A stretch of 63,746 nt of DNA, filler included, from Octopus bimaculoides (Eukaryota), in assembly GCF_001194135.2 (NCBI RefSeq). It is 8 parts of 6 records of this genome, joined end to end, with 100 filler letters (N's around TTAATTAATTAA, not from the genome) between each part and the next. Parts side by side here need not be neighbours in the genome. Positions count along the whole stretch, not along the records: positions 36,159 to 41,414 come from NC_068989.1; positions 41,515 to 51,811 come from NC_069007.1; positions 51,912 to 56,895 come from NC_069007.1; 5 more parts are not named here. One strand, written 5' to 3'. A program made the position numbers and the translations under genes. Below the pieces are notes generated by a model. The model was given only the letters and a program-made list of their open reading frames with translations. It was not told the DNA's origin and did no database searches. The first letter of the stretch is position 1. Each line of letters begins with the position of its first letter. Shown here piece by piece: positions 38,684-53,200 of the stretch.

Positions 38684-38900
38684 TTGTTGTATTTGGGGAT
38701 GATCATGTTGCCAGTTTAGCCAATAAAAACACACGCACTATATATTTGGTGTTAATTTGCTTCAGCTTTATATTACATTAATTGTATTTCGGCCAGAGTT
38801 CTTTCGTCACACTTCTGTGACCTCATCAGTGGTCCTTTGCTTTCTTCTTTCTTATATGTGTGTCCCTCCTTGCTAACGATCAGCCATTTTGTATTTTGTA
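38684..38900 (-). mobile_element. Hammerhead-containing interspersed repeat (family A; Penelope-like terminal repeat or retrozyme-like)
   Basis: Reverse complement of 53000-53200 over about 190 bp; contains the hammerhead at 38791-38834; no ORF. Confidence 0.75.
38791..38834 (-). ncRNA. Minimal type I hammerhead ribozyme motif (family A)
   Basis: Minus strand GACCA-CUGAUGA-G-GUCACA(GAAG)UGUGAC-GAAA-GAA-CUC-UGGCC. The core is intact, stem II is a perfect 6 bp, and stem I has one mismatch. Confidence 0.75.
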
Positions 38901-39102
38901 TTCCTATTGTATGTGTCTATATTTGCGCATGCGTATCCCTCTATGTGTGTCTATGTTTGTCTATGTTTTGTAAGTGCATGTGTGTGTATGGGGAGTGCCT
39001 GTATTAACTGTATCCCCTGTTAATACATGTTCGTTTAATTTGTTTTTATTTATTTGTTCATGTGTTTATACNNNNNNNNNNNNNNNNTTATTATTATCTC
39101 TA

Positions 39103-39489
39103 GTGGAGGCGCAATGGCCCAGTGGTTAGGGCAGCGAACTCGCGGTCATAGGATCGCGGTTTCGATTCCCAGACCGGGCGTTGTGAGTGTTTCTTGAGCG
39201 AAAACACCTAAAGCTCTACGAGGCTCCGGCAGGGGATGGTGGCGAACCTTGCTGTACTCTTTCACCACAACTTTCTCTCACTCTTACTTCCTGTTTCTGT
39301 TGTGCCTGTAATTCAAAGGGTCAGACTTGTCACACACTGTGTCACGCTGAATATCCCCGAGAACTACGTTAAGGGTACACGTGTCTGTGGAGTGCTCAGC
39401 CACTTGCACGTTAATTTCACGAGCAGGCTGTTCCATTGATCGGATCAACTGGAACCCTCGACGTCGTAAGCGACGGAGTGCCAACAACA
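39103..39489 (+). mobile_element. Full-length tRNA(Arg-like)-derived SINE
   Basis: Head GGCGCAATGGCCCAGTGGTTAGGGCAGCGAACTCGCGG...GGTTTCGATTCC; shared 3' body; (CAA)n tail. Confidence 0.85.
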
Positions 39490-39514
39490 TTATTATCTCC
39501 GACTTTTAATAGAA

Positions 39515-40896
39515 ATGACAACACCACAAGAGAAAGCGCCATATGTATCCTGGTTCAAAGAGACCAAATCAGACAGTCAGGTCTAGCAGAATGACCGCAC
39601 AAAGAACCACCATCTTGTGTAAGCATCCGTGCTTGGCATAAAATGTCTATAAAAGCAGGAAGCGCCTACAGAAAACAGGGGCTGGTTAACCAAAAAACAT
39701 AAGTGGAAGACGTTAAATGAATTCAAACAGCATTTCATCGTAGTTTTATTAAGTTCATTTGTACTGCAAGTAGACAGTTAAGTTTACTACGGTCAACAAT
39801 CCACAAGGTTTTGAACAAGAAATTGAGGTTTTATGTTTTAAAGTGCTACTTATGCAAGTACTCCAGCCAGATGACAAACCTCGAAGGAAACAATTTGCAG
39901 CGGAGTGTTAGCTCGATTAAATGAAGACGAAAGCTTCCTTCGAAAAATTTCTTTCAGTGACGAAGCAACATTTCATAAATATGATAAGTATACACAACAT
40001 CAGAATCCGGGTTCGGAAAAACCTAGACGGAACAAAAGAACTGGAACAAAACAGCCCAAAAGTCAATGTTGGGTGCAACCTCATGTTTGATTGAGTGTTT
40101 GGCTCATTTTTCTCTGAAGGAGAAACGATCATTTCCAACACTTACCTTGATCCTTTTATATATTTGTTTTGCAGGATTTTTGATGTGAAATCGTGTGTTG
40201 AAACAGATATTGTTGTATTTGGGGATGGTCATGTTGCAAGTTTAGCCAATAAAAACACACGCACGAAATATGATTAATGTAATGTAATGTAATATAAAGT
40301 TGAAGCAAATTAACACCAAATATACAGTGCGTGTGTTTTTATTGGCTAAACTGGCAACATAACCATCCCCAAATACAACAATATTTACCTTGATCTTTTA
40401 CAAGAATTTGTTGTACCACAGTTGCACCATCTGCAACCAACAGTTATTTTCCAATTAGATGGTGTGCCGCCACATTAGGGGTTGAGTGTTCGAGAGTTTC
40501 TTAATGGAACTATCCCAAATCAATGGATTAGAAGAAGCGGTCCAGTTCCCTGACCACCAAGGTCACCAGATACAACCCCCGTGGACTTCCTTTTTATGGG
40601 GCTACATTAAAGACAGAGCCTATCGTACAAAAGTTCTGGACCTCAATGATCCGAAGGAAATGATACACCAATCCATTATCCAACATTGATGAGGGGATGC
40701 TCCAATGCACATGGTCATAACTCGAGTATTGTCTAGATGTGTTGCATGCAACCAATGGAGCTCACGTGGCAGTGTTCTGAGGTTTCTAAATAAACTTTAT
40801 GTTTGTCAATGTTTTCCTATAAACTCTGCTGAATTATCCTTATTTATCATTTGCTCTGAATTTTTCGAATTGTAAACGTAATTTATGGACACCCTG
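39515..40896 (+). mobile_element. Tc1/mariner-superfamily DD41D transposon, defective
   Basis: MTTPQEKA start, FSDEATFH, YLDLLQEFVVPQL, FQLDG...41 residues...DF counted directly, WGYIKD. Right TIR AATTTATGGACACCCTG at 40880-40896; the left TIR was not found. Confidence 0.85.
40153..40384. mobile_element. Family A repeat insertion with 58-bp inverted arms and a target-site duplication
   Basis: Arms 40207-40264 and 40327-40384 differ by 2 mismatches. The flanking direct repeat TTACCTTGATC lies at 40142-40152 and 40385-40395, and removing the insert restores the transposase YLD codons. Confidence 0.85.
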
Positions 40897-41025
40897 GATC
40901 TATTCTGTCATTTTGACTCACTAGAAACGAATTTCCAGTAATATTTTGAGACATTATTTTTTACTCCTTGGAATCAAACATATTCCGTCATTTGACTCAC
41001 TGAAAACGAATTTTAAGCAATATTT

Positions 41026-41267
41026 TGTTTATCGCCACTTTAACACGGTTGTTCCGTAAGAACCAACGTTACTACCATTTTAACTTCAGGAGAAGTCCTC
41101 CTCCAGCTTTTGTATCGAATAACCAGCTGAAAGAGGCGTCCTTCTGGAGTTAAAATGGTAGTAGCGGCTTTTGTATCGAATGACCAGCAGGAAGAGGTAT
41201 CCTTCTGGGTTAAAATGGTAGTGACATCGGTTCCTAAGGAACAGTTATGTCGATGTGGTGATAAACA
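41026..41267. mobile_element. MITE-like fold-back element with an internal tandem duplication of about 60 bp
   Basis: Imperfect terminal inverted repeats of about 65 bp (TGTTTATC-CCAC...ACTACCATTTTAAC); CTTTTGTATCGAAT-ACCAGC...GTTAAAATGGTAGT occurs twice internally. Confidence 0.7.
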
Positions 41268-51925: not shown

Positions 51926-51974
<49 letters not shown>

Positions 51975-52530
51975 TAGCCCGGATGCAGTACCAGGCAGTG
52001 GCTCTCATGGCTTCTGATCTTAATTGATTGGAAGTGTTATCATGTACATTGTTTTGTCTTGGTATAAAAGATGAGCTACAGCAAATATTCTATTCAATAC
52101 CAGAGATTTACTTGTCAGTTGTTTGACCTTAACCAGTTGAGCATGTCCGTTGGTGGCTGACGATATGTGCATCTCTGATCACGAGCAGAAGTAGTGGGGG
52201 AGCATCATAGCCATGTGTTGAGAGGAATTCTTTGGGGTTTGAATAATTCACCTTTGGAAACATGGGTGTTTTGTTCATCATCCTTAAACAAACCTTATTC
52301 AAGGGCCTTTTGAGTGGGATGGGCTACTCGACCTGAAAAACTTTTAACTGGGCCCCACCTGCAAGGTCATGCGCTATTTATCTTGATATAAGATCACCAT
52401 GTTGCGCACATGCGGTTATGATGCATGTGCCTGGTGTACCTTTATCAGACAGGTAGTAATGATGGGTATATTGGGCTTCGTATATTTGTACCCCAGTGTT
52501 ACTTTGATGGCATGTACGACTCTCTCACCC

Positions 52531-52562
<32 letters not shown>

Positions 52563-52563
52563 T
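51975..52563 (+). mobile_element. Non-coding retroelement 3' region between (TAA)n tracts
   Basis: Bounded by (AAT)n at 51928-51972 and 52531-52563. Sub-segments recur at 5690-5840 and 7229-7345. Confidence 0.65.
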
Positions 52564-52999
52564 AAAAGTAATATATTCACTGACATGACAAAGTTCGGAC
52601 CTATATACACTGGAAGCTATGCCAACATTATGAAATAACAAAAAAAAAAAAAGATGGTATAGGCACAGGCCAGAAAAGGTCACAGAAAACGAGAAAGCAA
52701 CCATACTCTGGGATATTTTAATACACACAGATAGAGAAATTAAGGCCAATTATATTGTACTCAGTTTTTAAAATTGTTGCTTAATTCATTAACTCAGGAA
52801 AGACAAAAGGCACTGTAAACCTCGACAGAATTTGAACTCAGAATACACAGACAGACAAAATGTCACTAACCATTTTGCCTGACATGCTAATAATTCTGCC
52901 AGTCTGTTATCATAGAAGAAGAAGAAGAAGAAGAAGAAGAAGAAAAAGAAGAAGAAGAAGAAGAAGAAGGAGGAGGAGGAGGAGGAAGAGGAGGAGGAG

Positions 53000-53200
53000 G
53001 AGGGACACACATATAAGAAAGAAGAAAGCAAAGGGCCACTGATGAGGTCACAGAAATGTGACGAAAGAACTCTGGCCGAAATAGGATTAATGTAACATAA
53101 TGTAATATAAAGCTGAAGCAAATTAACACCAAATATACAGTGCATGTGTTTTTATTGGCTAAACTGGCAACATGACCATCCCCAAATACAACAATAATAA
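53000..53200 (+). mobile_element. Hammerhead-containing interspersed repeat (family A)
   Basis: Matches the reverse complement of 38684-38875 and the right half of 40153-40384; ends CCCCAAATACAAC(AAT)n. Confidence 0.75.
53034..53077 (+). ncRNA. Minimal type I hammerhead ribozyme motif (family A, best preserved)
   Basis: GGCCA-CUGAUGA-G-GUCACA(GAAA)UGUGAC-GAAA-GAA-CUC-UGGCC. Stems I and II are perfect, the core is complete, and the CUC triplet predicts a cut after 53072. Confidence 0.8.

What the first reader, a model, noticed from the sequence alone, without database searches (positions are those of the whole stretch)
38684..53200. Family A repeat carries a fully conserved hammerhead ribozyme in two independent copies
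Seen: copies at 38684-38900 (-) and 53000-53200 (+) keep all core nucleotides, a perfect 6-bp stem II and a CUC cleavage triplet. Differences within the motif fall in loop II (GAAG/GAAA) and one stem I position. There is no ORF, and the unit ends in CAAAUACAAC(AAU)n about 120 nt after the cut site. Stem III (AG-AA-CU) is too short for a monomer and not perfectly palindromic, so a dimer would contain tandem A:A pairs. Known: non-autonomous retrozymes and Penelope terminal repeats use such hammerheads. Inferred: a self-cleaving, non-coding retroelement family.
Basis: partly seen in the sequence, partly recalled or inferred. Interest (0 to 1): 0.75.

Follow-up and report, generated by a model that had tools for sequence, protein, structure and literature searches.

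The report
Penelope retrotransposon ends carrying hammerheads
The two hammerhead motifs are real, but they are the clipped-off ends of a common protein-coding Penelope-like jumping gene of what is likely an octopus, not a non-coding RNA family; the ribozyme likely cuts only weakly or with help, and this arrangement is already known.

Summary
The hammerhead motif is real (2 strict matches in the window, 0 in 100 shuffles), but it is not a non-coding family. Longer genomic copies join the same motif to a reverse transcriptase + GIY-YIG ORF. Both window copies are 5'-truncated pseudo-LTR ends of a Penelope-like element (about 1,800 candidates), most like Nematis. The supposed (AAU)n tail is flank: copies end in the first 8 codons of the ORF (ATG at 53172) or about 58 nt further on. 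Inverted 5' pieces, partial tandems, an 11-bp target duplication and the extra base between A9 and G10.1 all match published Penelope anatomy. None of 129 sampled copies has a retrozyme-like tandem neighbour. Stem II covaries across sister families, so selection acts on master elements; among copies the core decays like its flanks. 76 of 86 copies read through the cut site, and RNA reads show no ends there. Cleavage is untested. Side findings: a 68-aa insertion between RT motifs 3 and 4, and likely A-to-I editing, including core A15.1 (27% of reads). The scan had already noted Penelope hammerhead stumps in this genome and the RT insertion in another.

The parts
53000..53196 (+). Copy 2: 5'-truncated pseudo-LTR end of a Penelope-like element. 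It starts 73 nt before the predicted cut and ends at ATG+25.
   Evidence: 94% identical over 199 nt to the 3' end of the long copy L063; ends
53034..53077 (+). Type I minimal hammerhead motif: stem I 53034-53038/53073-53077, C3 53039, extra G 53046, stem II 53047-53052/53057-53062, G12 53063, A15.1 53066, U16.1 53071, predicted cut after C53072
   Evidence: sequence
53172..53195 (+).
   Evidence: In tandem copies L103 and L100 the sequence after this ATG encodes peptide that aligns with the N-terminal region of homologues P0010/P0011 (in L103 in the ATG's frame, from P0010 residue 10; E 3e-32)
38682..39071 (-). Copy 1: 3' UTR + hammerhead + first 8 codons; its 5' end is lost at an N gap
   Evidence: 87% over 405 columns to L063; 91-96% to the 39 next-best genomic copies
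38791..38834 (-). Hammerhead motif of copy 1 (family-majority form; stem I is 3 bp, an A.C mismatch, then G-C); predicted cut between 38796 and 38795
40153..40271 (-). Third remnant, inverted arm: ORF start (ATG at 40232) plus the optional tail of about 58 nt
40264..40384 (+). Third remnant, forward arm; begins 4 nt after the predicted cut site and lacks the hammerhead
   Evidence: L223
40142..40152 (+). Left copy of a 10-11-bp target-site duplication
   Evidence: same 11 letters at 40385-40395
40385..40395 (+). Right copy of the target-site duplication

Best explanation
The two motifs are minimal type I hammerheads in the pseudo-LTR of a coding, endonuclease-bearing Penelope-like retrotransposon, most likely of the Nematis type, and the window copies are 5'-truncated insertions that were likely made by the element's own RT/GIY-YIG protein from mostly uncut RNA. 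Shown: the order ORF (RT, CX4CxxC linker, GIY-YIG/CCHH) - 3' UTR - hammerhead - 99 nt - ATG; partial tandems that put the same hammerhead in front of the ORF; two fixed 3' ends inside the ORF start; variable 5' ends; inverted arms. Inferred by analogy with the anole Poseidon element: the protein binds the start of its own ORF RNA, nicks AT-rich DNA and starts reverse transcription at one of two internal sites (about ATG+25 and ATG+83). A transcript starting in the pseudo-LTR (5' ends cluster 83-100 nt before the cut) would give solo stumps like copy 2, and read-through tandem RNA would give longer copies like copy 1. The hammerhead likely cuts slowly and only as a dimer or with protein help (my odds of any site-specific cleavage are about 0.6), and cutting is likely not needed for insertion.
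For: Linkage: 21 of 29 loci picked by RT-thumb/linker DNA alone carry the hammerhead region, most about 1.4 kb after the match start. Protein: DKS, D..SLYP, QxxGxAIG and YVDD motifs; 85% match to an Octopus vulgaris RT-domain protein; the best two PDB fold matches of that protein's model are telomerases; the ESM Atlas structural neighbours include DUF8422/HTH_animal/GIY-YIG clusters. Endonuclease: NVVY..C....C...YVGET, two His, and R/H/E/N as in Fig. S2 of PMC8557442. Copy gradient, as first-look candidates: 33 and 44 for 5' parts, 1,082 for the RT thumb, 1,767 and 2,206 for the pseudo-LTR. Partial tandems in L070, L073, L074, L082. Inverted arm in 47 of 129 copies. Two 3' ends: 34 and 12 of 49. 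Target duplication. Sister families at about 65% DNA identity and two metagenome relatives carry core + extra base + 6-bp stem II; all 6 pairs change on both sides (9 rows, about 5 lineages). 76 of 86 copies read through the cut, as expected from PMC11167929.
Against: Pfam gives only a sub-threshold RVT_1 match (E 0.0011) and no GIY-YIG match, so the endonuclease call rests on motifs read against a published alignment. No copy with an unbroken full ORF was seen among those fetched. No tree was built, so the clade is by eye. The RT3-RT4 spacing (127-130 aa) does not fit published Nematis (60 aa). The tail (about 58 nt) is longer than the 30-40 bp in print. The descriptor found a downstream hammerhead in only 3 of 22 metagenome relatives, many of them short contigs, and one of the 3 (L148) has a non-canonical core. 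Reverse-transcription start sites and the promoter are inferred, not tested.
Confidence: 0.92

Rival explanations
1. A non-coding, self-cleaving retrozyme family of about 200-300 nt that spreads through circular RNA.
For: Type I hammerhead with a short stem III. Many copies are short, and 20 of 105 start 83-100 nt before the cut, which could mark a short unit. Earlier scan notes report retrozyme-like families elsewhere in this genome (unchecked).
Against: No same-strand second hammerhead within about 1.5 kb in 0 of 30 and 0 of 129 copies. 5' ends spread from +92 to -1061. The sequence is continuous with the ORF on both sides. No circular or unit-length joints in RNA reads (unstranded, ordinary libraries).
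Confidence: 0.03
2. The family is a coding Penelope-like element, but a short pseudo-LTR-only RNA also spreads by itself as a non-autonomous passenger.
For: Solo stumps far outnumber 5' ORF pieces (1,767 versus 33 candidates). The 5'-end hazard is about six times background at -100 to -83. Non-autonomous derivatives of Penelope-like elements are described (bioRxiv 10.64898/2026.07.22.740005; PMC8557442).
Against: The cluster is 18-40 nt wide, not a sharp end. Internal priming on an ordinary transcript explains it without a separate element. Short copies were not tested for private diagnostic changes.
Confidence: 0.12
3. The hammerhead in this family is catalytically dead or nearly so and survives as a structural or protein-binding relic.
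For: Majority stem I is only 3 bp before an A.C mismatch. Loop III (AA) is not self-complementary, unlike L141 and L158. The AGAACU self-duplex is unfavourable (+1.4 kcal/mol). There is no read-end pile-up, and most copies come from uncut RNA.
Against: The core is unchanged from sister families while the stems covary. There is a mild excess of 5' ends at -2 to +8 (10 of 105, p 0.015, window chosen after the fact). Similar motifs cut weakly as dimers (PMC4209133) or with protein (PMC11167929).
Confidence: 0.35

Closest known systems
Minimal hammerheads in pseudo-LTRs of metazoan Penelope-like elements (Cervera and de la Pena 2014, PMC4209133; parts 1-2 of 4 read)
   Same: Type I, unpaired base between positions 9 and 10.1, G10.1-C11.1, long helix II, short helix I, complementary 15.2/16.2, mostly single dispersed motifs and opposite-strand pairs
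   Different: Helix II is 6 bp (7-8 in Schistosoma, 6 in D. virilis); loop III is AA and not palindromic
C-terminal EN+ Penelope-like elements, Nematis clade (Craig et al. 2021, PMC8557442; passages, sections 6 and 12, supplement part 54 and searches)
   Same: Single ORF RT-linker-GIY-YIG; CX4CxxC then 7 residues to the next Cys, as in all three Nematis rows of Fig. S2 (25 in Neptune-1_Ac); similar endonuclease tail; partial tandems, inverted arms, optional tail, (TA)n neighbours
   Different: 127-130 aa from the RT3 Asp to the RT4 Gln, against about 58-60 in the canonical rows and about 115 in human TERT of Fig. S1; DKS for DKG; tail of about 58 nt; Asn-rich N-terminal stretch
Poseidon_Ac of Anolis (Frangieh et al. 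2024, PMC11167929; parts 1-2 of 4 read)
   Same: Two 3' ends inside the ORF start that define the tail; insertions made from uncut RNA; no reads ending at the cut
   Different: There the hammerhead overlaps the start codon; here it lies 99 nt upstream. Different clade.
Adineta vaga Penelope families (Arkhipova et al. 2013, PMC3846280; passages)
   Same: Pseudo-LTR holds the first codons of the ORF, the tail extends them, inverted arm, 8-10-bp target duplication, Asn-rich inserts
   Different: Tail 31 bp there; Asn-rich inserts lie elsewhere in the ORF
Metazoan non-LTR retrozymes (Cervera and de la Pena 2020, PMC7229834; passages)
   Same: Type I hammerhead with a weak helix III in a repeat of low GC
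   Different: No 150-450-bp tandem units; part of a coding element; minimal rather than canonical motif

Membership tests
Hammerhead ribozyme, type I | CUGANGA, GAAA and UH core with stems I-III | tested here: met
   stem III is only 2 bp
Hammerhead ribozyme, type I | Covarying stems around an invariant core | tested here: met
   Stem II: 6 of 6 pairs change on both sides across families (9 related rows, about 5 lineages; L141 is offset by one column). Within the family there is no compensatory change.
Hammerhead ribozyme, type I | Site-specific self-cleavage | not testable with these tools
   No read-end pile-up; weak excess of copy 5' ends near the site
Penelope-type minimal hammerhead | Extra base between 9 and 10.1; G10.1-C11.1 | tested here: met
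   G in 67 of 69 copies; C11.1 in 59 of 69, with 9 CpG-type T
Penelope-type minimal hammerhead | Palindromic 15.2-16.2 and loop III | tested here: inconclusive
   G15.2/C16.2 are complementary but loop AA is not; relatives L141 and L158 are fully palindromic
EN+ Penelope-like element | Telomerase-related RT with DKG-like, RT3, RT4 and YxDD motifs | tested here: met
   Pfam RVT_1 only below cut-off
EN+ Penelope-like element | C-terminal GIY-YIG endonuclease with CCHH | tested here: met
   Motifs read against Fig. S2 of PMC8557442; no Pfam hit
EN+ Penelope-like element | Partial tandems forming pseudo-LTRs that hold the hammerhead | tested here: met
   L070, L073, L074, L082; L098 and L103 have hammerheads on both sides of ORF sequence
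EN+ Penelope-like element | 5' truncation, inverted 5' arm, optional tail | tested here: met
   the tail is about 58 nt rather than 30-40
EN+ Penelope-like element | Retained 5'-UTR intron (optional feature) | tested here: inconclusive
   No GT..AG joint among the listed rows; 5' ORF coverage was under 10 reads
Nematis clade | CX2-5CxxC linker with short spacer to the next Cys | tested here: met
   7 residues here and in three Nematis rows, by eye
Nematis clade | No insertion between RT3 and RT4 | tested here: not met
   127-130 aa in 15 of 16 homologues (one lacks RT3) against 60; so filed as Nematis-like only
Nematis clade | Grouping in an RT phylogeny | not tested
Non-LTR retrozyme | Tandem units of 150-450 bp | tested here: not met
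   0 of 30 and 0 of 129
Non-LTR retrozyme | No coding capacity | tested here: not met
Non-LTR retrozyme | Abundant circular RNA | tested here: inconclusive
   No such joints in ordinary RNA-seq; no RNase R library was available

The most novel reading that the evidence does not exclude
The family belongs to an unnamed, Nematis-related branch of C-terminal-endonuclease Penelope elements with a conserved 68-residue insertion at the telomerase IFD position. Its hammerhead does cut, since some insertions begin at the cut, and the host's ADAR edits fold-back insertions at the catalytic A15.1, so that octopus RNA editing switches off a parasite's ribozyme.
Probability: 0.15. Interest if true: 0.55.

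Novelty: new member of a known kind. Interest (0 to 1): 0.24.

Why it matters
As a finding it is ordinary: hammerheads in Penelope pseudo-LTRs have been in print since 2014, and the apparent non-coding family is the truncation product of a coding element. Its use is as a natural test set. More than a thousand copies record where reverse transcription started and stopped. They show two internal 3' ends and mostly uncut templates, as in the one in vitro study, but in another clade with the ribozyme 99 nt before the ATG. The RT insertion, if confirmed as an undescribed branch, would weaken the rule that only N-terminal-endonuclease and some endonuclease-less elements have an IFD-position insert. 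The editing signal points to Penelope fold-backs as one source of octopus ADAR substrates.

Tried and rejected
Rfam over the whole window was swamped by microsatellite-driven miRNA matches; no hammerhead was among the 150 of 281 rows shown. Pfam missed the endonuclease. The PDB sequence search gave only a weak DRT1 RT match (E 0.0007). The fold for copy 1 used a shifted interval that cut off stems I and III and was not used. Core-versus-flank conservation looked significant with all columns (2.6% versus 6.1%, p 0.027, 21 copies picked by ORF DNA) but vanished when 13 shared subfamily columns were dropped (2.6% versus 2.9%, p 1.0); rejected as evidence for selection on copies. An apparent 5'-end cluster at +25 coincides with a repeat-length variant of the reference and was treated as an artefact; only 2 such copies could be re-placed. 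The 30 copies could not be used for 5' ends because the query selected long ones; fresh sets picked by sequence downstream of the cut were used, and 20 of 125 were set aside for gaps or contig ends. One genome search returned nothing. Neptune was my first clade guess; the linker spacing favours Nematis. An (AAU)n tail of the element was rejected.
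Full report
Observation. The window is a pack of eight stretches. Both motifs are present as described, on different contigs. In copy 2 the parts are stem I 53034-53038/53073-53077, CUGAUGA from 53039, an extra G at 53046, stem II GUCACA/UGUGAC, GAAA from 53063, and AGAACU closing on C53072. A strict descriptor finds these two sites and none in 100 shuffles. Rfam sees only a weak Hammerhead_3 match (E 1.4). 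A third, hammerhead-less remnant lies at 40153-40384 as two opposed arms between 11-bp direct repeats.

The family is coding. A genome search gave 1,767 candidates (40 scored, 30 fetched). The copies share their 3' part and break off at scattered 5' points. The longest ran into an ORF. Searching with that ORF DNA alone gave 29 further loci, of which 21 carry the hammerhead region downstream. The ORF holds DKS, D..SLYP, QxxGxAIG and YVDD, then CX4CxxC, NVVY..C....C...YVGET, two His and R/H/E/N. The nearest database protein is labelled Octopus vulgaris (85%), so the host is likely an octopus. A model of that protein (mean pLDDT 72) matches telomerases best (E 3e-7, low TM-scores). Against this, Pfam gives only a sub-threshold RVT_1 match and no GIY-YIG match. 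None of the fetched copies had an unbroken full ORF.

The hammerhead sits in a pseudo-LTR. Several copies have the same segment in front of the ORF as well (L070, L073, L074, L082). There the sequence after the supposed end continues in frame from an ATG 99 nt after the cut, and its product aligns with the N-termini of homologues (E 3e-32). Of 49 3' ends, 34 lie at ATG+22 to +28, 12 at +73 to +86 and 3 between; only copy 2 is followed by (AAT)2. Inverted arms occur in 47 of 129 copies, and no copy has a same-strand second hammerhead within about 1.5 kb. First-look candidate counts fall from about 2,000 at the pseudo-LTR to 1,082 at the RT thumb and 33-44 at the 5' ORF; these are not copy numbers. 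This is the anatomy described in PMC8557442 (section 6) and PMC3846280 (passages).

Is the ribozyme under selection? Among copies, no. With shared subfamily columns and CpG sites removed, core and flank differ from the majority at 2.6% and 2.9% (21 copies chosen by ORF DNA; p 1.0). Stem II shows 14 one-sided changes and no compensatory one in 52 copies. Between lineages, yes. Sister families of about 65% DNA identity in the same genome (L161-163, L167, L176; L186) and metagenome relatives (L141, L158) carry the core, an extra base and a 6-bp stem II after the ORF. All six stem II pairs change on both sides (nine rows but about five lineages, so the shuffle figures are not probabilities). The descriptor found nothing downstream in 18 of the 22 metagenome loci, many of them short; L148 and L159 gave only doubtful cores. 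The layout is the minimal Penelope hammerhead of PMC4209133 (parts 1-2 read), which cut weakly and only as dimers or with a lengthened helix III.

Does it cut? Untested. Among 105 usable copies chosen by sequence downstream of the cut (125 found, 20 set aside), 76 of the 86 that reach +8 read through the site. Ten stop at -2 to +8 (about 2.5 times background, p 0.015, window chosen afterwards) and 20 stop at -100 to -83. Inverted arms blur what a 5' end means, and an RT pausing at stem I would give the same excess near the cut. Three unstranded RNA runs of one study cover the pseudo-LTR several hundred deep on both strands; 79-85% of reads run on into unlike flanks, the 5' ORF has under 10 reads, and no place has many ends (for one run). 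That fits read-through of embedded stumps in host transcripts. It agrees with PMC11167929 (parts 1-2 read), where the hammerhead needed protein and uncut RNA was the insertion template.

Mechanism. Shown: structure, linkage, two 3' ends, truncation, inversion, target duplication. Inferred: internal priming at about ATG+25 and ATG+83; a promoter with starts about 90 nt before the cut, which would make solo stumps the commonest product; weak dimer- or protein-assisted cleavage that trims tandem RNA but is dispensable.

Clade and side findings. The linker has 7 residues between CxxC and the next Cys, as in the three Nematis rows of Fig. S2 of PMC8557442 (by eye, no tree). But 15 of 16 homologues have 127-130 residues between RT3 and RT4, against about 60 in the canonical rows of Fig. 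S1, with a conserved, confidently modelled insert. I found no description of it in paper searches or in motif searches of that supplement. Repbase, Dfam and subscription papers, including Arkhipova 2006, could not be searched, and the supplements of the bioRxiv preprint (part 1 of 5 read) were not seen. The scan noted the same kind of insert in another genome. RNA reads show A-to-G at 20-28% at ten listed sites, including A15.1 (292 of 1,078), where 60 genomic alignments have no G. In one search the sense-strand A-to-G class counts 39, 50 and 54 places in the three RNA runs against 23 in contigs of the same species label. ADAR editing of fold-back RNA is the likely cause, but the DNA is not from the same animal and a few highly expressed copies may dominate. 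That a change at A15.1 would impair cleavage is recalled knowledge. Editing papers were seen only as a search listing. A 2026 O. vulgaris repeat annotation lists 31 recently active Penelope-like families and has no occurrence of 'hammerhead' in its main text (PMC13282606, passages). PMC7229834 was seen as passages.

Verdict. Real motif, wrong family model: a new member of a known kind. Interest 0.24.

Noticed in passing
window 53055-53162 (family-wide reads laid on copy 2): A-to-G differences at 20-28% of RNA reads at ten listed sites, including hammerhead A15.1 (53066), absent from 60 genomic alignments; likely ADAR editing of fold-back insertions.
   Followed up: partly
L040:409-1158 and 1199-2365; P0001 residues about 350-430: Conserved insertion of about 68 aa between RT motifs 3 and 4 in a C-terminal-endonuclease Penelope-like lineage shared with 15 unnamed database proteins.
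   Followed up: partly
L161:4040-4092, L163:1099-1151 (-), L186:729-781 (-): At least two sister Penelope-like families in the same genome with different hammerhead stems; L186 shares the stem II and the ORF-start region of this family.
   Followed up: partly
L158:2855, 3855 and 3738 (-): A metagenome contig with two same-strand hammerheads exactly 1,000 nt apart and one on the other strand, after a distant RT/endonuclease match.
   Followed up: no
L103 (sense 1776 and 3885); L032:8034-8751: Internally deleted copies: L103 keeps two hammerheads 2.1 kb apart, and L032 joins the Asn-rich N-terminal region straight to the endonuclease linker.
   Followed up: no
window 39900-40700: The third remnant is inserted in what looks like a decayed Tc1/mariner transposase gene (motif resemblance recalled, not tested).
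   Followed up: no
window 38240-38465, 52750-52910, 53210-53660, 39090-39500: Abundant SINE-like repeats flank both copies; the (AAT)n after copy 2 appears to belong to the neighbouring repeat. A tRNA match lies at 16891-16963.
   Followed up: no
copy 5' ends, 83-100 nt before the cut (window about 52973-52990 equivalent): 20 of 105 copies start in this 18-nt zone; a candidate transcription start of the pseudo-LTR promoter.
   Followed up: partly
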